From: Tubiluchus corallicola
Taxonomy: Eukaryota; Animalia; Priapulida
Length of the DNA: 64,000 nucleotides
Assembly: GCA_030141605.1 (NCBI GenBank)
Contig: JAQGDQ010000071.1
Location: forward strand, 351,605-415,604
Direction: 5' to 3'
Positions 418-56,344 of the stretch are shown piece after piece. The notes under the pieces are model-generated. The model searched no databases. It worked only from the letters and a program-made list of their open reading frames with translations, and had not been told where the DNA came from. The stretch's first letter is position 1, and each line of letters starts with the position of its first letter. The position numbers and the translations under genes are program-made.

Positions 418-6151
<5,734 letters not shown>

Positions 6152-12449: not shown

Positions 12450-14270
12450 TGAGGGCACGGATAACTGATGCAGCTATTATATGGATCTTTTAATCCCGAG
12501 TCGACATGCACACTATAATGTGTTTAATACGATATTTAACACAGGGTATTTTCCAGCAGAATGATCCGAATCTGTTATTATACCTATACATAAATCAGGC
12601 CCACGTAGTGACCCACATAACTTCAGAGGCATTAGTCTTTCAAATGTTATTGGCAAACTTTTTAAAGCTTTTTAGTGTGCAGCAAACTAGAATCTTGGGA
12701 TAAAAACGTGATGACTATACCTGAAATACAAGCTGCATTCCGGCCTAACTATAGAACTGCTGAGCGAAAAACGAAAAACTATATACTTGCTTCGTTGATT
12801 CTAGAAAAGCTTTTGATTCGGTTGATAAAAGTTGTTTGTTATACAAACTTAGTATATTATGAATCAAGGGCAAAGTCTTGCGCATTATTAAAAATCTGCA
12901 TACTTGTACTAAAAGCTTTGTTAAAACGCAGCATGGAGTCACAGACTTGTTTTCTGTCAGTTTAGGTGTTGCTACAAGGATGTACGCTTTCTCCTATGTT
13001 ATTTTCATTGTATCTTAGTAATTTAGAAGCATTTTTGCGAGTTGAAGAAGTAGATCCGGCCTTGCTTGTTGTTACTACTTTATGTTTGTTAATGTTTGCC
13101 GATAATTTAATTTTAATGAATAGTTCCATACAAGGTTTGCAAAACTTGTTAAACCTGTTAAGTGAATATTGTAGGAAATGGATACTGACAGTAAAACAAA
13201 GATTTTAATATTTGAGAAACGAAACATTGCAGTACCTGAACAAATGCCTTTTTACTATAATGGTAATATGTTACGTCACTGTACTGCATATAAGTATCTG
13301 GGAGTATATTTTACTAAAATGGATATTTCAACAAGGCAGAGAGCTCACCACCCACGCCAATTGTCTTGGGGGAACTGGGCAAATATCCCATCAACCTATC
13401 AATTAAAGTAAAAGTCATTAAGCTTTGGCTGCGTTTAGTTTACTACCAGATAATAACCTGTGCAAGGAACCTTACATTTTGTCTAAACAATATAATTTGC
13501 TGTGGTATTTAGGGCTAACAAAAAATACTGTCTGATATTAATCTAGTGTTTTTATTAGAAAATTATATAGTGCCATTGTATATGAATACTTTGCATATTG
13601 CTGAAGGAATATTACAAGCACGCTATGTTACCAATTGGAAAAATTCGAAATGTCGAAGTTATCCTTTTACGGTAAATTTAAAACTTCTTTTAAATTTGAA
13701 TCGTATTTGGTAAATGTAAAGAATATTAAAGATCGTATTGCATTGACTAAGCTTAGAACAAGCGCTCACTCATTGCCTATAGAAACTGGGCGGTATATAA
13801 GACCTCCTATTCCTCGAGAGGGCGTCTATGTGCCAAGTGTAATGAAGTCGGTGACGAATGCCATTTATTCTATTTTGCTGTAAACATAACACTGTCCGCA
13901 ACTTTGAGTTTTATTTGGTAAATGTAAAGAATATTAAAGATCGTATTGCATTGACTAAGCTTAAAACAAGCGCTATTCCACGAGAGGAGCGTCTATGTGC
14001 CAAGCGTAATGAAGTCGGTGACGAATACCATTTATTCTGTTTTGCTCTAAACATAATACTGCCCGCAACTTTCTTGTAAATACAATCACACGTTCTATTC
14101 CAGAATATTACTTTTTAAATATTGATGACAAACTAACTTGTGTAATGCAATCTCATGATGTCACTATTCAATGTGTTGTAGCTAAATTTGTTCGAATTTG
14201 TATGTAAAATTTTGTTGTATGGATGTTTGGTGTTTGATCGGCCCTATTGGCCAAAAATCAATAAATTACT
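12450..14270 (+). mobile_element. Decayed non-LTR retrotransposon (RT and C-terminal region), frameshifted, with an internal ~200-bp duplication
   Basis: QAAFRPNY, LLQGCTLSPMLFSLYL, LMFADNL (YADD-like), YKYLG, KLRTSAHSLPIETGRY, RLC..EVGDEYHLF; AATAAA and short-repeat tail near 14260. Confidence 0.85.
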
Positions 14271-17800: not shown

Positions 17801-20714
17801 GTTGTGTTACGTAAAACAAATTTTTCGTCATCATGTAGGATATGGTCTGGTTGTAGTTGTCGTGAGTCATACATTATGAATCGAAGTGTGAGAAGTAGGG
17901 TGCATGGATTTTGGCAGTGGAAGCCAATAGTTTCCGCCATTACGTGTGGTCAGTTAACCTGTACAATTAGCTAGACTCTAACTGTTCAATACCTCAGACA
18001 GACAAGACTCCAGCCTGAGTCAGACCCATATCTAGAACAGCAAGAGGCTGACCCAGTCCGATAAGTAGATCAAACCTAGACTGTGAAAAATCTAACCACG
18101 ACTACAGCCAACCTTATACTAGCCTGTTATATGATGCATCATTAAATAAGATTATATAATGATTGTTTCATAATCACGCAACAATTACTGCAATCTAACT
18201 TTTTCATAATGACGCAAAACTTGTTACACAAAGTAGCATTTTTCTTATATTATGTTACGTGTAGTGAAAAGAGTGTTGTCGTTAGTGTGCTAACCAAGGA
18301 TATTGATGCACAAATACGTGTAATATTATAGCTAATTCTATGCAACGTCATTGCTTATGTTCACTGTGAAGCTAGAATTAAATTTTTTTATTTCATTTAC
18401 AAGCGGAGCAAGTAAGGTTGACTCTGCCATGCTCAGAGATGCAGGATTGGAAAATTGCGAGCCGGATCCGGCCAGTTATAACTGTGACCCGGATGCTAGA
18501 TTTCCTACATTTGACGGTTCGTGTAACAATCTCGAACATCCAGACTGGGGCGCTGTCGGATCACACCTAGTCAGGTCTCAGGATGCTAACTACTGTGATG
18601 GAGGTGTGTAGAGCACTCACTTTATTATATGTCTTCTTCGTTTATTGTTAAAAAAATATTCGCAGGCTTCTCATTTTTGTTTAATGTTAATGTTATTCTA
18701 AGCGAACCTTAAGGATCGGGCGTTTGAACATGAGTTTGAAAAATGAAAAAAATTCTATATAAAATTAGGGTCTTAACCACCAATCTGCCAGTGAGTAGTC
18801 ATCATTTGTACAAGTTTTTATGAGTCATTTATTTCAAATGGAATGGTCCCAATTTGCTGGAATTGTTTCAACGTTGTAATTATTTAGCACGAGAGTGACT
18901 ATCCAAAACACATGAAAAATAGATTCAATACTACGGTTTTATGTATTTATTTTAGTCGCCTTCCTTGAAGCAATTCCAAAGGATCTAATAGCTAAACTTC
19001 GGAGTGTTATGTGTTAAGCCAGTAGTCAAGTAGTAGGTTAATCATAAAGTTAGCTGGCCACAGCTCCAGAATAAGCCAGCGAAGCCTGTTTTGTAATCTG
19101 TTCGTGATTTTTGAACCTGTAATTAACCGATAATTTACTAGCCTGGTGATATAAGTTACATGTTTTCTTTGAAACTTTCATTGGATTTTAAGGGTACTCT
19201 GTAGCCTATAACTGCTTTATGTACAAGCATGGTTCTTCGAAAATCAATATAATTTGCTGTAGGGATAATATTACCCTACTTTAACTGATTTGCAGGCGAT
19301 ATAGGTATGGTGGCTGCTAAAATGATTTTTGCTGTTCTTTCTTGAAGACAAGTTATATCATTAAATGCTGCTTATTCCTACAGTTCCCCTTTGTGTATAA
19401 CAGTAACTCAAATGTGGCTGTACAATTGAATTGTATAATTGAATGCAAACTAATATAAGATCTAGTTCTTCTCAGCACGCCAATCTTTTGTGTAATTTAG
19501 TAATTTTGTTAAATCCTGGCGCAACGCTAGGTGTTGATCAGTTGCGACACCAAGAAGTTTTCTGCGTTTGTACTTCTTCTATGGTTTCATCGGTTGCATT
19601 TTCAATAACGATATCTTTGTTCTTCTTGTTGCTGCATGCAAATTTTTGCGCTCTACACATTATCATACTTTTGATTTTGCTAATATTTAATTTCGTCTTG
19701 TTATGGCTCGTCCATTTACTAATGTTTTTGGTGTCGGATTGTAGTTTTTATTCGACAATTTTCAAGTCTGCATTACCCGCATGCATTTCTGTTGAACATG
19801 CTTTTAAACTATTTGGCAAGTCGTTTATCTGTAGCAGGAAAATTGTAGGCCCAGCATAGATCCTTGTGGTATACCAGTTTTGATAATTTTAATTGTTCAG
19901 AATCTTGTCTTATAAAGTTGGACGCACTGGGATCTATTCGACAAATAGGGGCGGAACCAATTTAAGGCTGTCCTCCGTATGCCATAACATTTTAGTTTTC
20001 TTGTTACAATCTCATGATCAAGGATATCAAACGCTTCCTTTAGGTCTAAGCAGAGAACACCTGTAAATCTTCTGTCATCTATATTATTCAGCATTTTACC
20101 TGTGAGTGATATCAGTGCAGTTTCACAGTTAAGGTTTTCTCTAAAGCCAGACTGGTTTTCTGTTAAAAGACGGTGTGTTCAATATAACTGATTAAGCTAA
20201 ACTGCAACTAATCTTTCTTACCGTATCTAATACCTCACTTACAATAGGAAGGATGGAAATTGGGAGTAATTTTTAAGATCGTCCCGGTCATCAATTTTGT
20301 GCACGCCTCCGTTTTTAGTCACCAACAAAAAAGTTATTTCAAAACTGTAAAGTATTATTGATAACTTTATTTAGTTATAGTGAACGTAGCCTTTTCAACT
20401 TTTCCTTGACCTATTTGTTGTTCACTACTAACAAAAAGTCTTATCACTTTCTTGTTCAAACGTCAGGACAGTTTAACCTATTAAAATCGCGTACGTGAGA
20501 ATTTTATCTACAATTTTTCTTATAGAGGGTTCCCTCCGATGTTCCGTCAATGGTGGAGATTTGCCAAACGCAAGATCGATTAGCACCATTATTCACGAAT
20601 CACTGATGACCCCAGAGTTTGAGACAAGCGCGACACTGATGCTGATGCAATGGGGACAATTCTTAGATCACGATATTGTTTTAACTCCGTCAACGCAATT
20701 GCCATTTGATGTAG
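14898..20714 (+). CDS. Secreted animal heme peroxidase (peroxinectin/chorion-peroxidase-like), 5' part only; exons 14898-14911, 16340-16482, 17364-17472, 18404-18603, 20526-20714
   Basis: Phase-consistent exons give a signal peptide (VLVVLVLCVITCSA), RFPTFDGSCNNLEHPDWG, LPNARSIS and the distal heme motif QWGQFLDHDI. No later peroxidase exons found downstream. Confidence 0.9.
19200..20310 (-). mobile_element. Decayed CR1/L2-type LINE RT fragment in a peroxidase intron (bounds approximate)
   Basis: GVLCLDLKEAFDILDHEIVTRKLKCYGIRRTALNWFRPYLSNRSQCV; upstream frameshifted PISILPIVS and NQSGFRENLNCETALI. Confidence 0.8.
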
Positions 20715-21811
20715 GTAAGTGTGACGACCTTAAATGTTCGTATGTCCATGCGACTGTATGCCTGCAATTTGCAGTACAACATATGTCCACGAGGAGGAGG
20801 AGTGGCCGAAGTTGAGCAATATCTAGATTGGACAGTGAAAGATAGATAAACGCCGGGGCGGGGGGTCATTATTATGCCCCATTGCAAACGTTAATAAAAC
20901 ACTACTGCTGGTTTCGAAGATTTTCCTTGTTAATGAGCTAGGTTCCCGTCACGCCACAACGATCAACATTAAATAGATCCTGCCGTAGAGTGTCGAATTC
21001 TGGTTTGCCAAATCATGATTGGTCGATTGGTGCATACCAAATTGTATTAAAGAAATTTTCGTACATGTTGGTAGTGAAGGAACGGGGAACAAGCACCGTT
21101 TGGTTGAGAAAAAAGCAAATTTCATTTGGGACTTATTAGTAATAAATTGTTTCCGATAGTCAGTATGTTGCCCCCACTCCAAATAAATAAAGAAAATCCG
21201 CGAAAACCCCTAAAAAAGTGTGAAAACCCGTGTGAAAGTGCGCACGTGACCGAAATCGACGAAAAAGCGCGAAAAACAAAGAAAAACGAAGAAAAGGCGT
21301 GTGAAACGAGGTAAAAATTTTGCAGTTTTTCCCTCCCGCATGGCTTCATTTGGATCGAATGACCTTGAACTCTATAGGTCACGACCAAAGTTCATTGACC
21401 CCTGTCTCTGGATGGCTTCTTTTTTTGACACCCCATTTTAAACCGCGCAAAACCGCGGAAAAAAGGAAAGTGTGTGAAAGCGCATGAAAGCGTGTGAAAG
21501 CGTGTGAAAGCGTGTGAAAGTGTGTGAAACGAGGTGAAAAAGTGCCTCAAACGAAGAAAAGGAGAAGTGGAGTTCCCGCTCGAGTGACTAATTAGTGCTA
21601 ATTGGCGCTAATTGGCGAGCCCCCGCCACCCCTCCGGCCGCGTGCAAACGTCCGTCCCGGGTCGGGGACACCCCCCTGCAACCCACCCTCCGTCACGTGG
21701 AATCGTCCATTGCAGGCAATGAGGGAAATCTTCCCCCCCCACTCGGGTGCAGTGCCGGCCCTTTCATGACCACCGGGTGCCCCTTCGCGACCACTTCTCT
21801 CGCGGGTTTAG

Positions 21812-21851
<40 letters not shown>

Positions 21852-22049
21852 AGATTTATTTCAAACGCCAAAGTTCGATAAATGCATTTTCACAAATCTT
21901 TTTTATTGATGGATTACAAAAAATTTTTTTACATTTTTTATGCAAAATACATACGTGCTAAAACTAGATTATTATTATTATGGTGACGTGATAGTTCTAC
22001 ATTTTACGTTTTTTCGCAAATTACACAAATTACGCAAATTACAGTAAAA

Positions 22050-22640
22050 CTACACTAATGACGACGAGTGAGTACATGGATTGTCGTCGTCGTCGTCGAT
22101 GTGATACAGACAAACGTTATTGTTGTTAAAAACGAATTCGTTAAATTTGCGGAAAACGCGAGAGAAATCCTCGACCTTTGTCCCGCCCATCATTATTATG
22201 CTTCCGGTGTGAAAAATGTTCAGAGTAATTTGCTCGCATTTGCAAGTTAGTTTGGGAAATAGTTCCACTTCGTAAAACACTTCTCTAAATGAATGCGTCG
22301 AAGGACGAACGAGTTCTTCGTACAGTGCACCCAGTTTCAATCTGCAGCGAATTTTGGCTCTGGCGGTGATGGTGCGAAGTGCGATCCCGTCGGCGGGCGT
22401 CAGTCCGAGACCTTTCGAGAGTTCTTCGATCGCATTGCGTAGTACTTTTTCCTCCGAAAAACCGTTGGCCACCACGGAGCCGGAGGCAAAAATCATCAGC
22501 GTCCCGCCCAGTCGCTTTAGCAGAACCATTTGCGGTTTTCTTTCGTAGCGTCTTCCGCCCGTTCTCCGCCGGAGTTCGTTCAGATCGAAGCGCTGCGAGA
22601 ACGAAGCCGTGGCGACGATGTTGACCGTTTGGACTGACAC
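22050..22640 (-). CDS. Divergent TBP-like protein, left-arm copy (domain starts at GTG 22640; frame open to 23051)
   Basis: Two TBP repeats: VNIVATASFSQRFDLNEL...LMIFASGSVVANG and LRTITARAKIRCRLKL...FYEVELFPKL...LNIFHTGSIIMMGGTKVED. Intronless. Confidence 0.85.
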   Translation of the reverse strand: MSVQTVNIVATASFSQRFDLNELRRRTGGRRYERKPQMVLLKRLGGTLMIFASGSVVANGFSEEKVLRNAIEELSKGLGLTPADGIALRTITARAKIRCRLKLGALYEELVRPSTHSFREVFYEVELFPKLTCKCEQITLNIFHTGSIIMMGGTKVEDFSRVFRKFNEFVFNNNNVCLYHIDDDDDNPCTHSSSLV

Positions 22641-23092
22641 GTTAGAACGTAGTTGGCAATCGTTTCGGACGCCCGAACCGCTCTGCCTCGTCCGTTGCTC
22701 TGCCAACGTATGGCGGGCGGCGGGTGCTCGCTTTCCAGATCCTCTACGCGTATGACCACGCGATTTTTGGGGAGATGTTTTTTGACGAAATTGTACATCT
22801 CTGCTCCCTTGACGTAGGTGATCCTGCCTCTGGTGGTCTGTCGTAGAATGTTTTCCAATTCTGCGTACTCGATCATTCCCTCCTCCCACGAGATGCCGTG
22901 TATGTGTCTGATTAGGTAGTTGTAGGTGGATCGCTTGTGCTGGGGAACACGATTCCAGGGGTGGGGCGGTTTGAAGGTGTAGTTGTGATATATGCCGGTC
23001 TCTATTTCGCGAATTACCAAATTTTTGACCAGGTATTCTTCTTTTCCGCACTGGAAGGCATCTACGGTGAGAACTATGCTCGATTCAGACAT
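22580..23092 (-). CDS. DEDD/DnaQ-exonuclease-like protein of the type seen in invertebrate virus/Maverick-like insertions, 170 aa, left copy
   Basis: IVLTVDAFQ...YLVKNLVI...HNYTFKPPHPW...YLIRHIHGISWEEG...YVKG...VEDL motif order; family assignment is from memory. Confidence 0.6.
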   Translation of the reverse strand: MSESSIVLTVDAFQCGKEEYLVKNLVIREIETGIYHNYTFKPPHPWNRVPQHKRSTYNYLIRHIHGISWEEGMIEYAELENILRQTTRGRITYVKGAEMYNFVKKHLPKNRVVIRVEDLESEHPPPAIRWQSNGRGRAVRASETIANYVLTCQSKRSTSSPRLRSRSASI

Positions 23093-23315
23093 CTGTGACG
23101 ATGGGGGGTCCTTCTACGCCGTCGGCAACGAGTTTTCCTTCGATGACGATTTGCTTGTGATTGTTCACAAATTCCAGAGACTTGATTTTTTCGAAGGTGT
23201 ATTTTTTTATGACCTTGTTGGGGGCACTCTTGCGTGCGTTGGCGCGCTTGCCGCCCCGCGTCCCCGCTTGTTGTTGTTGCTTGCGAGGAACGGTGGTTAG
23301 AGGTTGTTTGAAATC
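23085..23315 (-). CDS. Small basic ORF/exon (DFKQPLTTVPRKQQQQ...GPPIVTDV*), unknown function
   Basis: Strong acceptor TTCTTCTTCTCTTGCAG ends at 23316; its stop overlaps the exonuclease start (ATGTCTGA). The right arm holds only a 5'-truncated copy (23625-23831). Confidence 0.45.
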   Translation of the reverse strand, partial: DFKQPLTTVPRKQQQQAGTRGGKRANARKSAPNKVIKKYTFEKIKSLEFVNNHKQIVIEGKLVADGVEGPPIVTDV

Positions 23316-23366
23316 CTGCAAGAGAAGAAGAACAATAGTTATAGTATTGTTGTTCGCTAACGACAA

Positions 23367-23534
23367 CTAGGCATTTTTGATGAGCCATTCTTTCAGATTT
23401 CTAGGTTTTTTGGGGGCAGTGGGGGTGAGCACCATCGGCGGCGATGGAGGGGGCGTCGCGGAAATTACGAGTTTGTCTTCTTCTTTATCATCATCTTTCT
23501 CCTCTTCCTCCTCCTCCTCTCGAAAGATGTCCAT
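23367..23534 (-). CDS. Acidic/Pro-rich small ORF in the palindrome spacer (55 aa from ATG; frame open to the arm junction)
   Basis: MDIFREEEEEEEKDDDKEEDKLVISATPPPSPPMVLTPTAPKKPRNLKEWLIKNA*; co-oriented with the left-arm ORFs. Confidence 0.4.
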   Translation of the reverse strand: MDIFREEEEEEEKDDDKEEDKLVISATPPPSPPMVLTPTAPKKPRNLKEWLIKNA

Positions 23535-23823
23535 TCGTGTCCCTCTCTCGCGTCTGCTTTTACACGGAGGGGCGGAGGTGCCGACGTCCGTGTCTGGCAG
23601 ACTTCTTTCCGTCCAGTTTGTCCAGTTCCTCGCAAGCAACAACAACAAGCGGGGACGCGGGGCGGCAAGCGCGCCAACGCACGCAAGAGTGCCCCCAACA
23701 AGGTCATAAAAAAATACACCTTCGAAAAAATCAAGTCTCTGGAATTTGTGAACAATCACAAGCAAATCGTCATCGAAGGAAAACTCGTTGCCGACGGCGT
23801 AGAAGGACCCCCCATCGTCACAG

Positions 23824-24336
23824 ATGTCTGAATCGAGCATAGTTCTCACCGTAGATGCCTTCCAGTGCGGAAAAGAAGAATACCTGGTCAAAAATTTGGT
23901 AATTCGCGAAATAGAGACCGGCATATATCACAACTACACCTTCAAACCGCCCCACCCCTGGAATCGTGTTCCCCAGCACAAGCGATCCACCTACAACTAC
24001 CTAATCAGACACATACACGGCATCTCGTGGGAGGAGGGAATGATCGAGTACGCAGAATTGGAAAACATTCTACGACAGACCACCAGAGGCAGGATCACCT
24101 ACGTCAAGGGAGCAGAGATGTACGATTTCGTCAAAAAACATCTCCCCAAAAATCGCGTGGTCATACGCGTAGAGGATCTGGAAAGCGACCACCCGCCGCC
24201 CGCCATACGTTGGCAGAGCAACGGACGAGGCAGAGCGGTTCGGGCGTCCGAAACGATTGCCAACTATGTTCTAACGTGTCAGTCCAAACGGTCAACATCG
24301 TCGCCACGGCTTCGTTCTCGCAGCGCTTCGATCTGA
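23824..24336 (+). CDS. DEDD/DnaQ-exonuclease-like protein, right-arm copy, 170 aa
   Basis: Inverted duplicate of 22580-23092 with two amino-acid differences (YN/YD, ESE/ESD). Confidence 0.6.
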   Translation: MSESSIVLTVDAFQCGKEEYLVKNLVIREIETGIYHNYTFKPPHPWNRVPQHKRSTYNYLIRHIHGISWEEGMIEYAELENILRQTTRGRITYVKGAEMYDFVKKHLPKNRVVIRVEDLESDHPPPAIRWQSNGRGRAVRASETIANYVLTCQSKRSTSSPRLRSRSASI

Positions 24337-24866
24337 ACGAACTCCGGCGGAGAACGGGCGGAAGACGCTACGAAAGAAAACCGCAAATGCTTCTGCTAAA
24401 GCGACTGGGCGGGACGCTGATGATTTTTGCCTCCGGCTCCGTGGTGGCCAACGGTTTTTCGGAGGAAAAAGTACTACGCAATGCGATCGAAGAACTCTCG
24501 AAAGGTCTCGGACTGACGCCCGCCGACGGGATCGCAATTCGCACCATCACCGCCAGAGCCAAAATTCGCTGCAGATTGAAACTGGGTGCACTGTACGAAG
24601 AACTCGTTCGTCCTTCGACGCATTCTTTTAGAGAAGTGTTTTACGAAGTGGAACTATTTCCCAAACTAACTTGCAAATGCGAGCAAATTACTCTGAACAT
24701 TTTTCACACCGGAAGCATAATAATGATGGGCGGGACAAAGGTCGAGGATTTCTCTCACGTTTTCCGCAAATTTAACGAATTCGTTTTTAACAACAATAAC
24801 GTTTGTCTGTATCACATCGACGACGACGACGACAATCCATGTACTCGCTCGTCGTCATTAGTGTAG
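24276..24866 (+). CDS. Divergent TBP-like protein, right-arm copy (domain starts at GTG 24276; frame open from 23865)
   Basis: Same two TBP repeats (VNIVATA..IFASG; YEVELFP..IFHTG). AATAAA at 25015 and 25062 downstream. Confidence 0.85.
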   Translation: MSVQTVNIVATASFSQRFDLNELRRRTGGRRYERKPQMLLLKRLGGTLMIFASGSVVANGFSEEKVLRNAIEELSKGLGLTPADGIAIRTITARAKIRCRLKLGALYEELVRPSTHSFREVFYEVELFPKLTCKCEQITLNIFHTGSIIMMGGTKVEDFSHVFRKFNEFVFNNNNVCLYHIDDDDDNPCTRSSSLV

Positions 24867-26282
24867 TTTTACTGTAATTTGCATAATTTGTGTAATTTGC
24901 GAAAAAAACGTAAAATGTAGAACTATCACGTCACCATAATAATAATAATAATCTAGTTTTAGCACGTATGTATTTTGCATAAAAAAATGTAAAAAAAATT
25001 TTTTGTAATCCATCAATAAAAAAGATTTGTGAAAATGCATTTATCGAACTTTGGCGTTTGAAATAAATCTCCACACACACACACACACACACACATCTAA
25101 ACCCGCGAGAGAAGTGGTCGCGGAAAAGGGAGGGCACCCGAGAGAGAGAAGTGGTCGCGGAAAAGGGCCGGCACTGCGCGAGTGGGGGGGGGGAAGATTT
25201 CCCTCATTGCCTGCAATGGACGATTCCACGTGACGGAGGGGTGGGTTGCAGGGGGGGTGTCCCCGACCCCCGGGACGGACGTTTGCACGCGGCGGAGGGG
25301 TGGCAGGGGCTCGCCAATTAGCGCCAATTAGCACTAATTAGTCCTCGGCGGGAACTCCACTTCTCCCTTTTTCTTCGTTTGAGGCGCTTTTTACCTCGTT
25401 TCACACACTTTCACACGCTTTCGCGCACTTTCACACACTTTCACGCGCTTTCACACACTTTCACATGCTTTCGCGCGGTTTTGCGCGGTTTAAAATGGGG
25501 TGTCAAAAAAAGAAGCCATCCAGGGGTCAATGAACTTTGGTCACGTGACCTAGAGTTCAAGGTCATTCGATCCAAATGAAGCCATGCGGGAGGGAAAAAC
25601 TGCAAAATTTTTACCTCGTTTCACACGCCTTTTCTTCGTTTTTCTTTGTTTTTCGCGCTTTTTCGTCGATTTCGGTCACGTGCGCACTTTCACACGGGTT
25701 TTCACACTTTTTTAGGGGTTTTCGCGGATTTTCGCACTTTTTTAGGGGTGTTTTTCCCCACCCCCCCGGGCAGCCAAAGGGGGGGTGGGGAAATCGGCCA
25801 GAGGCAAAACATCTATACTACTGAGGCCGAAATACCTGGGAAAGTTAAAGTTGTCCAAAAGTCCTGTAAGACCTTCACGACCTGGTAGAACCAGTACTTG
25901 ACAATAATTATTGAAATTATCTCTTTTACTGCATTTGTCACAGACTGGCAATGTTTAAAGCATGTGACGCAAATTGTGGCCTTCAACTATAGGTGACAGT
26001 AGGAAATTGTAATAAAACCCATCGACCTGTTTTTGTGACTTGATTATAGCTTTTTAATATAAGGCTTAGTTCTAAAAATCCTAACGTTGATTGGGATAAT
26101 ATGTACAAAACATCCAGGTTACAGAATTCTTGAGATTCGAACACCAAACTATCACTGTCCGTTTGTTTTGGATTTTTTTTTGTAAAAAATAAACCAAAAC
26201 AGGTACACCAGGGGAAAGTAATTTTTGTTATTATAATGGTTATTCTCGCGGTGATTTCCAAATAGTTGTTTTCTTTTTATAG

Positions 26283-40385
<14,103 letters not shown>

Positions 40386-47941: not shown

Positions 47942-50900
47942 TACTCATGGGATTGAATTAAGAACGCCCGCGTTCACACGTGTCTGTGTTGTCTAGTCAT
48001 TGGTTTGAATTCCAAAGGTTTCTGGTTCAAATATATTGTGTTCACTTTACCAATAACTGATAATCTCGAATTTAAACTTATAACTAATTAGCTAATTATT
48101 TTATTTAATTACTTTCCAGAAGTTCCAAGTCATCTTCATGACTACGATTCCTACGTGCGGTTCTGCTTTTACCCGGGGGAGGCAGCTCGACGTCCCGCGC
48201 CAGCCACGTTCTTACCAGAAGACATCGACCCCTCAACTTGCACGCACATCGTGTTTGGATACGCCACAATATTGGATAATGAGCTGACGGCCAAGTCAGA
48301 GTCAGATTTAGGTAAGTTGCTTGTTGCAAAGTGCTTTTGCCAATATGGTGTTATTGTTTACCATCCAAAGAAATTTCTGTGCTCATTGCGATGATGATGA
48401 TGATTATGGCGACGACGACAACGATGATGATTCAGCTTTAAGTAGAACAGACAAACAAAGCTGCAATGAGATTTTTTATTGCCCACGATAAATTACGAAT
48501 TACAACTACATAACAGAGATTAGTCACACAGGGCAACTACACGTAGCATTTTTTAATTTTTTTATATGACTGTCTTTCGTATCGAACACGCAACCTCCTG
48601 TACGGAGCTCGGACGTTTTACCTATCAGGCTACGCAGCCACTGTATTTGCCTAAGTGTTTGAAGAGAGACAGTACGACGTGACTATTAAACGAATACACA
48701 ACATTGTCGTTCTGGCTATTGAGATTGCAAGCTGAGGTAAAAAGGTATCGAGGTTTAGGGACTGAAGTCGTGGACACTGGGTAGTGGGTTTTGAGTTTAA
48801 ACAGGTACTGTGGGTAGAAATACCAAAAAACGTCAGGTCTATTTTATACACTCCCGAAATACTTTTCAGATTGCACGCAAAGTGTTAAAATTACTTGAAG
48901 ATCACCAGTCGAATATTCATTCACGAAAAAAGGTTTATAAATAGAAGTAAATAAGTATAATCATTTTACTAGTTTTACAATCTGTTCACAAACCTACTAA
49001 ATTGACAATATGATAAAAATCATGGTTTTTTGGTTCTTTTCTTAGAGAAGCGGTACGAAATCTCGACTTCACACTTAATCGCATTTAGATATAGATCTAG
49101 TAACTAATTTAATCTACAGCCAAAGGGAAGAAATAAAATGAGGTCTGCAACATCTTGATGGCTCTGCTTGTTAAATGGTTTCAGCTTATCGTAGCCCCGA
49201 ATGCACCACTCATATTTTACGCCTAGCACACGAACGCAGCGCACCCTGTGCTTAACTCCCCAGCCTGTGGTATCATTGATGACTTTCTTTTCTGGCTAAT
49301 TATCACATTGGACACAATTCAATTCAATTCAATAATTTTTTATTTGGCTGATTTGCAACACAAAACATTAAACTATATACGTAATGATAGCAACAATGCG
49401 ATAACAAAAACAGGTATGGTTTGAAAATTCTACAGAGTAGGATCGTGAACTTTCCAGACTCACCCCGAGACATGTCTTCTGTTCCTGAAATGGTAACTCG
49501 CGTAATTTCGTAACTTTGAAGCTCGTAGCTCTAATTTTAAATGCTTTTACTCACTTTCTGCATATAGTATTTTTTAGCACTTCTAGTTTTAGTCTAGGTA
49601 AATTTTAATTGTATGTTTTTGTGGCTTTTATGCTGAAATAAATAGTACAATGAATGGATCAATCATAAATCAATCATTCTGACATGCTCTTCTCCTCACT
49701 TCTTAGCTTAACAAACCCAAATGAGGTTCAGTTTTAGTTATTTCAATGGCAAATAAAAAAAATTGATTTAATTTTGCTTTAATTTTGTTGCGTTTTTCCA
49801 ACTTTTTTGTTAAATGATAAAGCACATAAAAATTGACGATATAAAACACATTGAAAAATCCCTGGTAAAGACCTACTTAACAATAACCAAGGTACACGGT
49901 GCAAGAAAGCAACAAACTGAACAAAGACCTGATCAAGTAAAAGTGCATTCAAAGCTGTGGTACAAGGAAAAAACCTAATGAAGCAATGAGTATTGAAGTA
50001 ACTTTCCACAAATTTTATATTTTGTCAGAATTTCAAGAGGCCATTTATGCACTTTAACCCATGTCACAAAAATGATGTGTCGCATTCATTGTTAAACCAA
50101 ATTTTGAGCTAAACGTTTTTTAAAACATCGTTATTGCATTGTTTAAGACGCTGGTTGGGCTTTAAATTGCTATTTGCAGTAATACCTAACTAAAAAATCC
50201 GTTTGCACTAACTGTTTCTGTCGAAGCATTTAATAAAATTCTTTTTTAGAATTGTTTCAGAGAATCCTGGCCCTAAAAAACCAAAATCCAGATCTGAAGG
50301 TACTGCTAGCAGTAGGCGGTTGGGCAGAAGGTTCACAGCGTTTCAGCAATATGGCGTGGTCTCTCAACTCACGTCTTACCTTTGTTAATTCTGTACTTCA
50401 TTTCCTGAGACAATATGGTTTCGATGGACTAAATGTCGACTGGGAGTTTCCGGGCTACGAACGAAGAGGTGGACATCCTTCAGATAGAGACAATTTACCA
50501 CTGCTCTTAGAGGTATTGATATAAAAATATTAGTAGTATTTGACAGGCTATAACACTCTAACTGCTTTGCTCTTGAAATTCATCTTTTCAAGCATTTTAA
50601 AGCAGGTTGTTAGTTCTGCTAGTTGACCGTCGGTTCTTCGTGTCTATATGGTGTAGTTTTGGCTTGAACAAATTAATGCAAAGTGAGGACTCTTCTTACC
50701 CAATATCTCTGTGTCAATTTTAAATTTATGTACAATTGTGTGTTTAATTTTTAGGAGCTTCACAAGATCTTTACGATGGAAGCCAAGTTTTCCGGCAACA
50801 ATCAACTAATCTTGGCCACCACGATACCGGGCGCTAAATACTGGATAGATTTGGGTTACGACATCCCGAAAATCTCTTCGTGCGTTTATAAATACGTTTC

Positions 50901-53900
50901 TTATTTTTGATGAAAATAATTGGTACTAATAACGCTATTTAAAAGTTGAATTATCAGTGAATGATAAATTATTATGTAGAAGATAACCGCCCTGCAGGTC
51001 AAGTGACTAACCTCAAAATTGTCCTTGAAATCTATCATCTACTACCATTAATCCTTGCAAAGCGCCTTGTGTAAAAAACATCTCTGGTTATTTGTGCTCA
51101 AAGAGAAAAAGCTTCTCATAATATTCTTGATTTCTAAATGCAGGTTTAGTGATTATTTACCAATGATGACTTATCACCTTAATGGAATATGGAACAAACA
51201 CGCTGGTCATGGAAGTCCTTTGCATCCTCACTCCTACGATGTGGACAAAACTGCGAATATTGTAAGTGAAGAGGTCGCCTTTGAAATATCTTTGTTTTTA
51301 GTAATTTCAGTTAAGTGTAAGACAACTTGGAAAATCACACACAAGCAAGGGCAGCATTTTTGTGTCATGTGTGTGAAAGGGATAAATTATTGGAAAATCA
51401 CGGAAGCACTTTTGAGACTAATAGCTATGAAGATGCGGTATGATCGTTTTCCTTAGATAACCTAGTAATCTTCCATGCCATATAGTGTTCCTTGGTTTTT
51501 AGGGTACTTGGATAACCTAATAATCTTCCATGCCATGTAGTGTTCCTTAGTTTTTAGTGTACTTGGATAACCTAATAATCTTCCATGCCATGTAGTGTTC
51601 CTTAGTTTTTAGTGTACTTAGATAATCTAATAATCTTCCATGCCATATAATGTTCCTTAGTTTTTAGTGTACTTAGATAACCTAATAATCTTCCATGCCA
51701 TGTAGTGTTCCTTAGTTTTTAGGGTACTTAAATAACCTAGTAATCTTTCATGTCATATAGCGTTCCTTAGTTTTTAGTGTACTTAGATAATCTAATAATC
51801 TTCCATGCCATGTAATGTTCCTTAGTTTTTAGTGTACTTAGATAATCTAATAATCTTCCATGCCATGTAATGTTCCTTAGTTTTTAGCGTACTTAGATAA
51901 TCTAATAATCTTCCATGCCATATAATGTTCTTTAGTTTTTAGTGTACTTAGATAATCTAATAATCTTCCATGCCATGTAGTGTTCCTTAGTTTTTAGTGT
52001 ACTTAGATAATCTATTAATCTTCCATGCCATGTAGTGTTGCTTAGTTTTTAGTGTACTTAGATAATCTAATAATCTTCCATGCCATGTAGTGTTCCTTAG
52101 TTTTTAGTGTATTTAGATAATCTAATAATCTTCCATGCCATATAACGTTCCTTAGTTTTTAGTGTACTTAGACAATCTAATAATCTTCCATGCCATATAG
52201 CGTTCCTTAGTTTTTAGTGTACTTAGATAATTTAATAATCTTCCATGCCATATAGCGTTCCTTAGTTTTTAGTGTACTTAGATAACCTAAATCCTATTAT
52301 CGTTGCTTTTTTTTAAGGAATTCATCGTCCAATATTGGATAAACCATGGAACGGATCCAAAGAAATTGCTGCTGGGAATTCCTCTTTTTGGACAGACTTA
52401 CACTCTCCAAGACCCATCTGACCACATGTTAAATGCACCTATTGTAGGAAGTGGCAAGGCTGGACACATGTATCAACAGGAAGGAATGATGCCGTACTAC
52501 GAGGTTTGTGCCCACAAAACTTTGCTTGAGCTTATTCTTATTAAGATTTTCGGCTTCTTGTGGATTGGTAAACACCAATCTTATTACTGCTTAAGTGATA
52601 GATTTAGCCAACTGAACAACTGATAATGCTTCTTGCGAATATTTTTTGAATGACTTACAGATCTACGTCTTCACTCATAATAAATGAATAAATTACGACA
52701 AAATTTGCAGATTATAAAGATTCGCAAATCTGTTTCGGAAAATTCACAAACATTTTAATGGTACCAATGTGCGGCATTTGTCACATTTGCAAATAAATAA
52801 AAATTGTGGTTTATTTCTATTAATTTTAATGACTTGCATTACTTAAATCTTTTGTAGGTGTGTTCTGAAGTGATGCCAAGCTATGAAAGCTTTTGGGTTG
52901 AAGATCAGCTTGTTCCATTTGCTTACAAAAATGACCAATGGATTGGCTACGAGGATTCAAGGAGTATTAGTGAAAAGGTAACAATCCTTTGCAGTATATT
53001 TGGACAAGTTCTAGAACTTCCATCACCAAACTTTCACTAATTTTTTTGTACGTATTGTTGACCACAGTTAGCATTCAACTGGTTACTGATCACCAACTTT
53101 TGTAATTTTTGCAACGCATTTGCATGTTATCAACGGGCCTCATTTTTCCCTGACTGACAATAGGGTTCGTCTAACTAGTTTTTGTTTGTAGGTCAAGTAT
53201 GTGATCGACAATCACCTTGGAGGCGTTATGGTCTGGGCATTAGGTTTTGATGATTTTAAAGGTCATTGTAATCATGGAAGGAATCCTCTGTTGACCACAA
53301 TAAAAACAGAATTGCTGGAAGTGACACAGGTGACCTATGTAATCCACACAAAATCTTCAAATGTTTTACAGCAGTTGCCGCACAAGTATGAAACGGGTGC
53401 AGTAGAACCACATTATGCAACATCACATCACGGTGAGACGTACAGGCGTCATACTGTGCAACATCGGCGACACTACGTACAACATGTATCCCATCAGCAA
53501 GAAGGACAACACCCTGTTCATGGATATGATGAGCACCATGCCTACCATGGGCACAGTCGCAGTCGCAGAGTGGAGTCATCATATTCACGGCACGGGAATT
53601 ATCACGATGCGTATCCTCATCAAACACAAGGAAGTTACATACCATATCAAGAACACGAAATGATTCCCCACGAAACGTACAATTACGAAACATATCCACA
53701 CAGAGATGCATATGAAGTCTACCCTAGCAACAGCTATCCTTATGACGCTCACAATTATGTAATATATCTGCCGGAGCAGTATGACGTGCACCCTCATCAA
53801 ACACATGAGAATTACGGTGCATATTCAGCACATGGACAGTATGATGATTTCGAAGTACATCCTCGTGAAAGTTCTGAAATATATCCAGTAAACGAGCCGC

Positions 53901-56344
53901 ATGCGTACCCTTATGAAAAAAGCAATTATTACGATACTTACCCTGGGTCTGAACTCTATGAAGTTCATCCTTATGAAAGTTATGGTTATGAAACACACCC
54001 TGATGAACTGTATGCTGAACATGGACATTATGAAGGGCATCCTCGTGAAACATACCCTGAACATGGACATTATGAAGGGCATCCTCGTGAAACATATCCT
54101 GAACATGGACATTATGAAGGGCATCCTCGTGAAACATACCCTGAACATGGACATTATGAAGTGCATCCTCGTGAAACATACCCTGAACATGGACATTATG
54201 AAGTGCATCCTCGTGAAACATACCCTGAACATGGACATTATGAAGTGCATCCTCATGAAACATACCCTGAACATGGACATTATGAAGTGCATCCTCGTGA
54301 AACATACCCTGAACATGGACACTATGAAGTGCATCCTCATGAAACATACCCTGAACATGGACATTATGAAGTGCATCCTCGTGAAACATACCCTGAACAT
54401 GGACATTATGAAGTGCTTCCTCATGAAACATACCCTGAACATGGACACTATGAAGTGCTTCCTCATGAAACATACCCTGAACATGGACACTATGAAGTGC
54501 ATCCTCATGAAACATACCCTGAACATGGACACTATGAAGTGCATCCTCGTGAAACATACCCTGAACATGGACATTATGAAGTGCATCCTCGTGAAACATA
54601 CCCTGAACATGGACATTATGAAGTGCATCCTCATGAAACATACCCTGAACATGGACATTATGAAGTGCATCCTCATGAAACATACCCTGAACATGGACAT
54701 TATGAAGTGCTTCCTCATGAAACATACCCTGAACATGGACACTATGAAGTGCATCCTCATGAAGCGTACCCTGAACATGGACACTATGAAGTGCTTCCTC
54801 ATGAAACATACCCTGAACATGGACACTATGAAGTGCATCCTCATGAAACATACCCTGAACATGGACACTATGAAGTGCATCCTCGTGAAACATACCCTGA
54901 ACATGGACATTATGAAGTGCATCCTCGTGAAACATACCCTGAACATGGACATTATGAAGTGCATCCTCATGAAACATACCCTGAACATGGACATTATGAA
55001 GTGCATCCTCATGAAACATACCCTGAACATGGACATTATGAAGTGCTTCCTCATGAAACATACCCTGAACATGGACACTATGAAGTGCATCCTCATGAAA
55101 CATACCCTGAACATGGACATTATGAAGTGCTTCCTCATGAAACATACCCTGAACATGGACACTATGAAGTGCATCCTCATGAAACATACCCTGAACATGG
55201 ACACTATGAAGTGCATCCTCATGAAACGTACCCTGAACATGGACACTATGAAGTTCATCCTAATGAATTATATCCTCATGAAGAGTATCCTGAACATGGA
55301 CACTATGAAGTGCATCCTCATGAAACGTATCCTGAACATGGACACTATGAAGTGCATCCTCATGAAGAGTATCCTGAACATGGACACTATGAAGTGCATC
55401 CTCATGAAACGTATCCTGAACATGGACACTATGAAGTGCATCCTCATGAAACGTACCCTGAACATGGACACTATGAAGTGCATCCTCATGAAACGTATCC
55501 TGAATATGGACACTATGAAGTGCATCCTCATGAAACGTACCCTGAATATGGACACTATGAAGTGCATCCTCATGAAACGTACCCTGAACATGGACACTAT
55601 GAAGTGCATCCTCATGAAACGTACCCTGAACATGGACACTATGAAGTGCATCCTCATGAAACGTACCCTGAACATGGACACTATGAAGTGCATCCTCATG
55701 AAACGTACCCTGAACATGGACACTATGAAGTGCATCCTCATGAAACATACCCTGAACATGGACACGATGCATATGAAAGCTATCCAGGCCACTATGATAC
55801 GTATCCATCACATGTTTCCACAGTTGGTATTCCATTTCCACACCATACAGCTTATTCTTATGAAGGGTATCCTACAAATCAATCCTATGAACAATATCCA
55901 CGTAATACTTACAACGATTATGAATTACCTGGTACTGTTGGACACGAGACATATCCCAGTAATACTCATGGGGGCGAAAGCCTTGGCCCAGTAGTTGCCC
56001 AGGAAGAGCAGAGGCCATATAATCCAGAATTGGAGGAAACAAAACTTTCGGATTCCGGTTCATCTGCTTCTGGAAGAAACGGCGCTGTGGGAATGGCTAC
56101 AGAAAGTACGCAATGTGAGGTGAAAGGACCAGGTCCCTCTTGCTCCGGACATTCGCACATGGTAATGGCAAATCCAATAAACTGTCGCAAGTACTATCTA
56201 TGTCTGTGGCAGAACACACCCAATGAAATGCGTGTTCCAATGAACTGCCCGGAGGGAACAGTCTTTCATCCATTCAAATACATGTGTGATGATAAGGAAA
56301 ATGTTGATACATCCGTAATATGTAAATGTGGAGAAGAGTCGTGA
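46717..56344 (+). CDS. Secreted GH18 chitinase-like protein with His/Glu/Tyr/Pro repeat linker and C-terminal CBM14, ~1408 aa; exons 46717-46786, 48120-48311, 50250-50512, 50755-50879, 51144-51261, 52318-52503, 52858-52977, 53192-56344
   Basis: Signal peptide MQGIGVCLVLVLLAGLSST; IDPSTCTHIVFGYA, KVLLAVGGW, FDGLNVDWEFP, KLLLGIPLFG, QWIGYED, LGGVMVWALGFDDF; CBM14 ANPINCRKYYLC...CPEGTVFHP..MC. All intron phases consistent (4227 nt). Confidence 0.93.
51453..52290. repeat. 55-bp intronic minisatellite, ~15 copies
   Basis: Unit TTAGATAATCTAATAATCTTCCATGCCATGTAGTGTTCCTTAGTTTTTAGTGTAC. Confidence 0.95.
54016..55765 (+). repeat. Coding 42-bp tandem repeat, ~42 copies of (H/R)ETYPEHGHYEVHP
   Basis: In frame within the last chitinase exon; one 15-nt insertion near 55260. 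Confidence 0.95.

What the first reader, a model, noticed from the sequence alone, without database searches (positions are those of the whole stretch)
21192..25793. 4.6-kb palindromic virus-like element carrying its own TBP-like gene and an exonuclease-like gene in both arms
Seen: two ~2.1-kb inverted arms and a 333-bp spacer; a sharp GC/CpG increase over the host; compact overlapping ORFs pointing outward (small ORF > exonuclease-like > TBP-like > AATAAA > microsatellite > ~600-bp motif-rich terminus); no transposase, integrase, polymerase or capsid gene; no TSD. The arms differ by about 8 coding substitutions, microsatellite length and several indels, and all frames stay open. Established: large DNA viruses (Nucleocytoviricota, nimaviruses) encode TBP homologs, and Polintons and linear DNA viruses have long TIRs. 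Inference: a defective (internally deleted or fold-back) derivative of an uncharacterised endogenous DNA virus or giant transposon whose terminal module encodes a private basal transcription factor.
Basis: partly seen in the sequence, partly recalled or inferred. Interest (0 to 1): 0.9.

Follow-up and report, generated by a model that had tools for sequence, protein, structure and literature searches.

The report
Mirror-image Polinton end carrying TBP
This mirror-image DNA is real in the sequence and consists of two inverted copies of one end of an abundant repeat that is very likely a Polinton (virus-like transposon); that end carries a TATA-binding-protein-like gene and a Maelstrom-like gene, so it is likely a defective leftover of a known class of element rather than a new virus.

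Summary
The palindrome is real: arms 21192-23291 and 23625-25732, 96% alike, with a 333-bp spacer. The right end runs on to 25822 and finishes in ACTACT, the (ACT)2 Polinton/Maverick terminus. Public contigs place the end there, show a family of order 100 copies with a shared ~118-bp terminus, and show an empty allele. Other copies leave the spacer after a 9-bp word that also starts the arm, so the centre is a microhomology junction. The 'exonuclease' belongs to a Maelstrom-like family (likely adintovirus 'MAEL'); this copy lacks the conserved acidic and zinc residues. The TBP-like frame has a full two-lobe fold but no in-frame start codon before its first strand. A motif scan found TBP genes in other Polintons, two with the same MAEL-then-TBP order, one with integrase, polymerase, ATPase and protease. 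The left end is truncated and the flanks belong to different host genes. Fold-back of one element, a deletion joining two copies, and an assembly join therefore remain open. Verdict: defective derivative of a TBP-bearing Polinton; moderately interesting, not a new virus class.

The parts
21192..23291 (-). Left arm: copy of the Polinton end, truncated inside the terminal repeat (about 90 bp missing)
23292..23624 (-). 333-bp spacer, likely the natural upstream sequence of the left arm: short acidic ORF (ATG 23534, stop to 23367) and a splice-acceptor-like site at 23316
   Evidence: family copies continue through it
23625..23633 (+). 9-bp microhomology GTTCCTCGC at the central junction (same word starts the left arm on the minus strand)
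   Evidence: loose ends behind 23633 in X1 (5 contigs), X2 (1), X4 (3)
23625..25822 (+). Right arm with complete terminus
23085..23315 (-). Small basic ORF piece (76 aa) after the acceptor-like site; no start codon, no Pfam hit; its 3' part is also in the right arm up to 23831
23824..24336 (+). MAEL-like (DnaQ/DEDD-fold) gene, 170 aa, lacking the family's conserved D, E and C-H-C residues
22580..23092 (-). Left-arm copy of the MAEL-like gene
24270..24866 (+). TBP-like reading frame, two lobes, overlapping the MAEL-like C-terminus; no in-frame ATG before strand 1
22050..22646 (-). Left-arm copy of the TBP-like frame
25015..25110 (+). Two AATAAA signals and a CA microsatellite
25111..25704 (.). 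Non-coding subterminal zone with TTTCACAC repeats, CACGTG and CCAATTAG words; most arm differences lie in 25111-25560
25705..25822 (.). ~118-bp terminal repeat shared with other inner sequence in the family; holds a C/G-rich hairpin (about 25754-25792) and ends in ACTACT
   Evidence: motif as in PMC8097293
18336..20812 (+). Left flank: two host haem-peroxidase exons (Pfam profile 2-114 of 530); no later peroxidase exon found to the right
34466..37566 (+). Right flank: host RhoGEF DH (profile 116-174) and PH exons

Best explanation
The element is two inverted copies of one end of a high-copy repeat that is very likely a Polinton/Maverick, joined at a 9-bp microhomology, and it likely arose as a copy-back (fold-back) product of Polinton replication that would have been integrated by an intact relative's integrase and likely lost its left tip and neighbouring host DNA later. 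Shown: arms, Polinton-type terminus at a contig-defined end, high depth, empty allele, 9-bp junction word, MAEL-like and TBP-like frames, no core genes. Inferred: template switch during protein-primed strand-displacement replication; integration in trans; one later deletion that removes the left tip and fuses a peroxidase intron to a RhoGEF intron. The MAEL-TBP pair is inherited cargo of the parent, not a feature of the palindrome. In intact Polintons the TBP-like protein is predicted to bind an altered promoter sequence and recruit host TFIIB and Pol II: it keeps the two C-lobe glutamates but has lost one of four DNA-wedging Phe and the second-lobe Asn relative to a canonical TBP. Expression from this copy is doubtful.
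For: Terminus: contigs end or change at 25822/25823 in X2, X3, X4, and the six letters there are ACTACT, the commonest Maverick end motif (PMC8097293); ACTACT occurs only 12 times on this strand of the 64 kb. Family: element bins lie about two orders of magnitude above flank bins in 4 of 4 runs (2 samples; the tool warns depth is not copy number). Depth steps up and other inner sequence joins at 25705 in X2, X3, X4, so the shared terminus is short and the 2.1-kb arms are not simply the parent's TIRs. Junction: copies leave the window after 23633 in 3 of 4 runs. MAEL-like: 644 relatives; DnaQ/Maelstrom folds; best named viral fold is a Drosophila-associated adintovirus 2 protein, E 1e-10; E plus C-H-C in 116 of 129 aligned members, matching the ECHC motif (PMC4408791). 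TBP context: 6 of 7 metagenome hits are TBP; L003 has ATPase, rve integrase, adenain and pPolB by Pfam; MAEL-like lies upstream of TBP in L003 and L008. P0001 (59%) and P0002 (62%) are both single Logan proteins with a longest contig of 1855 bp and suggest the same overlap in a relative. Coding differences between the arms are 6 non-synonymous to 2 synonymous, as for neutral drift. A filled allele (X3, 25795-26178) and empty alleles (X2, X4) exist.
Against: Arm differences are uneven (0 in the inner 499 bp, 13 in a 450-bp zone; p=0.002 against uniform), and a one-base indel at 24981, in the homopolymer run where the arms differ, is common in the family; both fit two different copies better than one fold-back. 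The flanks belong to different genes, and the empty-site upstream sequence was not found in window 15-30 kb. No listed contig bridges the centre or the left junction, and only 28 letters lie on the element side of the right one. No TSD can be tested. The parent's core genes were not seen in this genome (none held). The window TBP is only 22-29% identical to the TBPs of the metagenome loci.
Confidence: 0.5

Rival explanations
1. Two separate Polinton copies, one in the peroxidase intron and one in the RhoGEF intron in opposite orientation, were joined by a microhomology-mediated deletion that removed their interiors and the host DNA between them.
For: Flanks from different genes; empty-site upstream sequence not found at 15-30 kb; uneven arm divergence; a family-wide indel at 24981; no TSD.
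Against: Needs two insertions, a separate truncation of the left tip and the central deletion; one adjacent deletion explains tip and flank together under the fold-back model; the inner 499 bp are identical.
Confidence: 0.25
2. The palindrome, or the pairing of its flanks, is an assembly join across a high-copy repeat.
For: A host gene breaks off at the element and another resumes after it; no listed contig spans the stretch.
Against: The arms differ at 22 substitutions and 25 indels, unlike a read folded on itself; assemblers do not normally join on 9 bp (general knowledge); the right junction has contig support in X3.
Confidence: 0.1
3. The parent has gene-containing TIRs of 2 kb or more, and this is an internal deletion between them.
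For: Butterfly polintons with ~2-kb gene-bearing TIRs are described (10.1101/2025.02.07.637071, section 12).
Against: Other inner sequence joins the terminus at 25705 and depth rises there, as for a ~118-bp TIR; this could however be another subfamily.
Confidence: 0.1
4. The parent is some other DNA virus (Nucleocytoviricota-like, nimavirus-like) or a hairpin-ended element.
For: Best viral fold matches of the TBP model are giant-virus TBPs; MAEL-like folds also occur in ichnoviruses; there is a hairpin near the end.
Against: The (ACT)2 terminus, short TIR and MAEL-TBP order in bona fide Polintons; the fold library may simply lack Polinton TBPs.
Confidence: 0.05

Closest known systems
Polintons/Mavericks (adintoviruses): Starrett 2021 PMC8502044; Barreat and Katzourakis 2021 PMC8097293
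   Same: (ACT)2 terminus, TIR in the reported 46-1447 bp range, MAEL-like accessory gene, high copy, insertion polymorphism
   Different: No pPolB, integrase, ATPase, protease or capsid here; one end duplicated; left tip lost; no TSD
Adintovirus 'MAEL' gene (Starrett Suppl. Fig. S2 labels; 'mael-associated' polintons in 10.1101/2025.02.07.637071)
   Same: DnaQ/Maelstrom fold; family carries E..C-H-C
   Different: Window protein and P0002 lack the Cys/His part; identity with the published MAEL label is inferred, the published sequences were not compared
Cellular TBP (PF00352) and viral TBP-like proteins (Ravarani 2020 PMC7221094)
   Same: Two-lobe saddle; both C-lobe glutamates and three of four Phe kept
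   Different: Very divergent; one Phe and the lobe-2 Asn replaced. Ravarani reports the TFIIB-contact positions as diverged in viral TBPs, whereas Y-E-x-E-L-F-P is invariant in the 9 rows here (E-L-F-P was fixed by the search pattern for 6 rows, Y-E was not)
TBP-labelled gene in a MELD virus (Starrett 2021, Fig. 5 legend)
   Same: TBP-like gene in an element with adintovirus-like PolB
   Different: Legend only; I could not see which element carries it; the section concerns mainly non-animal datasets
Copy-back defective genomes and hairpin transposon silencers such as maize Mu killer (recalled, no call)
   Same: One end duplicated in inverted form at a short homology
   Different: No evidence here of replication, interference or small RNA

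Membership tests
Polinton/Maverick | Terminal motif 5'-(AGT)2//(ACT)2-3' or (AG)3//(CT)3 | tested here: met
   Right end ACTACT at 25817-25822, end defined by contigs; left tip absent
Polinton/Maverick | Terminal inverted repeats | tested here: inconclusive
   ~118-bp terminus shared with other inner sequence; the parent's other end was not read
Polinton/Maverick | 6-bp target site duplication | tested here: inconclusive
   None at this site, but the left tip and original flank are missing
Polinton/Maverick (autonomous) | pPolB and rve integrase | tested here: not met
   No tblastn hit in the window; so not an autonomous member
Polinton/Maverick (autonomous) | ATPase, adenain protease, major and minor capsid | tested here: not met
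Polinton/Maverick (parent) | Core genes linked to this end in the host genome | not testable with these tools
   No genome held; same gene order seen in L003 and L008
TBP family PF00352 | Two TBP repeats and saddle fold | tested here: met
   Pfam 4e-22, two stretches; PDB TBPs 3e-9; model pLDDT 88; viral TBP folds
TBP family PF00352 | Four intercalating Phe and two Asn for TATA binding (roles recalled) | tested here: not met
   Against E. cuniculi TBP: first Phe and lobe-2 Asn replaced, the others kept
TBP family PF00352 | C-lobe glutamate pair contacting TFIIB | tested here: met
   YEVELFP aligns with YEPELFP; invariant in 9 of 9 rows; role from PMC7221094; mapping to their numbering is mine; binding not tested
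MAEL domain | DEDD-like fold | tested here: met
MAEL domain | ECHC zinc site | tested here: not met
   Family 116 of 129, but the window protein has N for E and lacks C-H-C
Active DEDD exonuclease | Catalytic acidic residues | tested here: not met
   Family D/E at position 9 is T here; activity not assayed

The most novel reading that the evidence does not exclude
The palindrome is one of a mobile family of copy-back mini-Polintons made only of the MAEL-TBP end. Read-through from the truncated peroxidase gene would cross both arms to the right-arm poly(A) signals and fold into a ~1.4-kb hairpin RNA that silences the parent family's own transcription factor. Alternatively the minis supply a TBP variant that hijacks host TFIIB.
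Probability: 0.15. Interest if true: 0.75.

Novelty: new variant of a known kind. Interest (0 to 1): 0.4.

Why it matters
How Polintons, which have no RNA polymerase, control their transcription is open. This locus and the loci found from it show that several animal-type Polintons carry a TBP-like gene, in L003 next to a PC4-like coactivator gene and a MAEL-like gene, with the TFIIB-contact glutamates kept. That gives a direct biochemical test. The palindrome itself adds a likely copy-back derivative tied to a host-gene rearrangement. Both points extend a known class; neither defines a new one.

Tried and rejected
No whole genome held. Word-index search with the MAEL-like protein: 0 of 52 candidates; the HMMER library search found the family instead. 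Related-locus scans of viral contigs with TBP, MAEL-like, P0016 and the motif pattern found nothing. L001 and L002 are chance matches in phage tail genes. The first metagenome scan found no relative among 295 stretches. L009 is a chance hit of the motif. Alignments A1 and A2 were too diverse for locus scans. No RNA holder was listed, which says nothing on expression. X5 laid nothing, host flank included, so it is uninformative. The Atlas search for TBP and the VIA fold search did not complete. A shared promoter box in L003: TTAAAG precedes 4 of 13 ORFs, picked after the fact, so only a hint; the window has no virion genes to test. A programmed frameshift from MAEL into TBP was considered by eye only; I saw no clean slippery site. 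A Helitron-type end was considered for the hairpin and dropped once the end mapped to ACTACT. No complex prediction was run: only prokaryotic TFIIB stand-ins are offered.
Full report
1. Observation. The arms 21192-23291 and 23625-25732 align at 95.9% over 2135 columns around a 333-bp spacer. GC is 48-49% and CpG o/e 1.31-1.34, against 34-35% and 0.77-0.81 in the flanks. The arms differ by 22 substitutions and 25 indel events: 0 substitutions in the inner 499 bp, 8 in the next 743 bp (6 non-synonymous, 2 synonymous), 13 with 19 indels in a 450-bp non-coding zone. This spread is not uniform (p=0.002). The host is an intron-rich animal: peroxidase, RhoGEF, chitinase and small-GTPase exons.

2. 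Ends and copy number. No genome is held. Four public runs (two samples) hold the stretch as contigs. Summed depth inside the element is about two orders of magnitude above the flanks in 4 of 4 runs, for example 4,770-86,577 against 75-419 in X4; the tool warns that this is not a copy number. The last six letters are ACTACT, the 3' half of the commonest Maverick end motif in PMC8097293 (passages); the word occurs 12 times on this strand of the window. Depth steps up near 25705, where other inner sequence joins in X2, X3 and X4, which suggests a terminal repeat of about 118 bp. X3 has a contig running from 25795 into the host (28 letters on the element side); X2 and X4 have the empty site, so the insertion is polymorphic. 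The left arm stops about 90 bp short of the tip, and the empty-site upstream sequence was not found in window 15-30 kb.

3. Centre. Family contigs follow the spacer to 23633 and then leave the window in 3 of 4 runs. Positions 23625-23633 are the same 9-bp word that begins the left arm. So the spacer is the natural inner neighbour of the left arm, and the right arm is attached by microhomology. No listed contig bridges this junction or the left one; the tables are cut, so this is neither support nor refutation.

4. Genes. The TBP-like frame hits Pfam TBP at 4e-22 with two stretches, solved TBPs over both lobes, and folds with pLDDT 88, nearest to giant-virus TBPs in the viral library. Against E. 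cuniculi TBP it keeps three of four Phe, the lobe-1 Asn and the YExELFP loop, and loses one Phe and the lobe-2 Asn (residue roles recalled, glutamate role from PMC7221094 passages). There is no in-frame ATG before strand 1; the TBPs of L003-L008 start with Met there, while the 59% relative P0001 was called from the same internal Met. A spliced leader is possible but unshown. The 170-aa upstream protein has no Pfam hit, 644 relatives, a DnaQ/DEDD fold with Maelstrom among the matches, and best named viral matches in an adintovirus and in ichnoviruses. 116 of 129 aligned members (the query plus 128 of the best 150 hits, short ones left out) carry E plus C-H-C, the ECHC signature of MAEL (PMC4408791 passages). 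The window protein lacks these and the first acidic residue, so 'exonuclease' is a fold label only. Starrett's Suppl. Fig. S2 labels MAEL genes in adintoviruses and a 2026 preprint speaks of mael-associated polintons; that this is the same family is inferred.

5. Context elsewhere. A degenerate TBP motif found 0 viral contigs and 7 metagenome loci: 6 TBP by alignment (5 of them scanned and confirmed by Pfam; L007 is 99% identical to L004) and 1 chance hit. L003 is a Polinton with ATPase, rve integrase, adenain and pPolB by Pfam, plus PC4-like, MAEL-like and TBP genes. L008 has weak capsid and adenain hits, then MAEL-like and TBP. L004 has a weak adenain hit; L006 and L007 resemble it by eye. 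L005 is unassigned. These TBPs are only 22-29% identical to the window's, so the Polinton assignment rests on terminus, MAEL-like gene and gene order, not on close kinship. No Polinton core ORF from these loci hits the window.

6. Flanks. Left: peroxidase exons covering profile 2-114 of 530. Right: RhoGEF DH 116-174 and PH exons. No further peroxidase exon was found among the frames scanned to the right (52; 85 and 89; frames under 30-50 aa and low-complexity frames were left out). The two flanks are thus probably not the two sides of one target site.

7. Mechanism. Most likely (0.5): copy-back of one Polinton end at the 9-bp homology, integration by an intact relative, then an adjacent deletion. 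Rivals: deletion joining two inverted copies (0.25), assembly join (0.1), long gene-bearing TIRs as in butterfly polintons (0.1), non-Polinton parent (0.05). Polinton origin overall is about 0.9. For the TBP of intact elements I predict recruitment of host TFIIB and Pol II at an altered box; nothing here tests it, and a box search in L003 gave only a weak hint.

8. Literature. Ten searches listed no paper whose title or abstract start describes TBP genes in animal Polintons or palindromic MAEL-TBP derivatives; two searches showed only 25 of 58 and 40 of 442 papers, and most subscription journals and Repbase are not covered. The only direct precedent seen is the TBP label in the Fig. 5 legend of PMC8502044 (abstract, sections 3.1, 3.2, 3.4, start of a cut supplement; figures and slide files not seen, and they may name the element) and in its preprint (passages). 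Also seen as passages: PMC6431247, PMC10675990, 10.1101/2023.08.22.554363; PMC11161782 has no TBP or MAEL mention. Earlier notes of this scan report Polinton TBPs (47 findings) and palindromic Polinton families in other genomes; they are unchecked leads, not support, and they lower the surprise of this case.

9. Verdict. Observation confirmed with corrected ends; interpretation partly supported. A defective, mirror-image remnant of a TBP-bearing Polinton: new variant of a known kind, interest 0.4.

Noticed in passing
L003:7601-10141: A Polinton carrying PC4-like (Pfam 7e-5), MAEL-like and TBP genes in one block between adenain and pPolB; pPolB is in pieces.
   Followed up: partly
L008:604-2124: Two TBP-related ORFs in tandem after the MAEL-like gene: one full (1e-42), one longer with a single weak TBP stretch (9e-7).
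   Followed up: no
L004, L006, L007: Short (152-155 aa) TBP-like genes facing the protease gene; a RING ORF lies next to TBP in L004 (Pfam) and L007 (by resemblance).
   Followed up: partly
L005:356-1398: TBP-like gene in a 25% GC contig without Polinton genes in view; origin not assigned.
   Followed up: no
window 18336-20812 and 34466-37566: Peroxidase gene breaks off at the element and a RhoGEF gene resumes after it: possible element-linked deletion or mis-join.
   Followed up: partly
window 23316, 23093, 22593 (minus strand): Three acceptor-like sites, each in phase 0 with the following ORF, one directly before the MAEL-like ATG: possible alternatively spliced unit.
   Followed up: partly
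window about 23557-23565 (minus strand): TGTAAAAG about 25-30 bp upstream of the spacer's acidic ORF: a single TATA-like candidate.
   Followed up: no
window 22373-23018 (joints): Contigs matching only conserved blocks of TBP and MAEL suggest more diverged subfamilies in the same genome.
   Followed up: no
window 50237-56344: Host chitinase (GH18) with a long His/Glu/Tyr-rich 14-aa repeat (42-bp tandem array) before a Cys-rich C-terminus.
   Followed up: no
window 12966-13205: Reverse-transcriptase fragment (Pfam RVT_1).
   Followed up: no
window 2034-2396 (minus): Exon of a Rho-type small GTPase (Pfam Ras).
   Followed up: no
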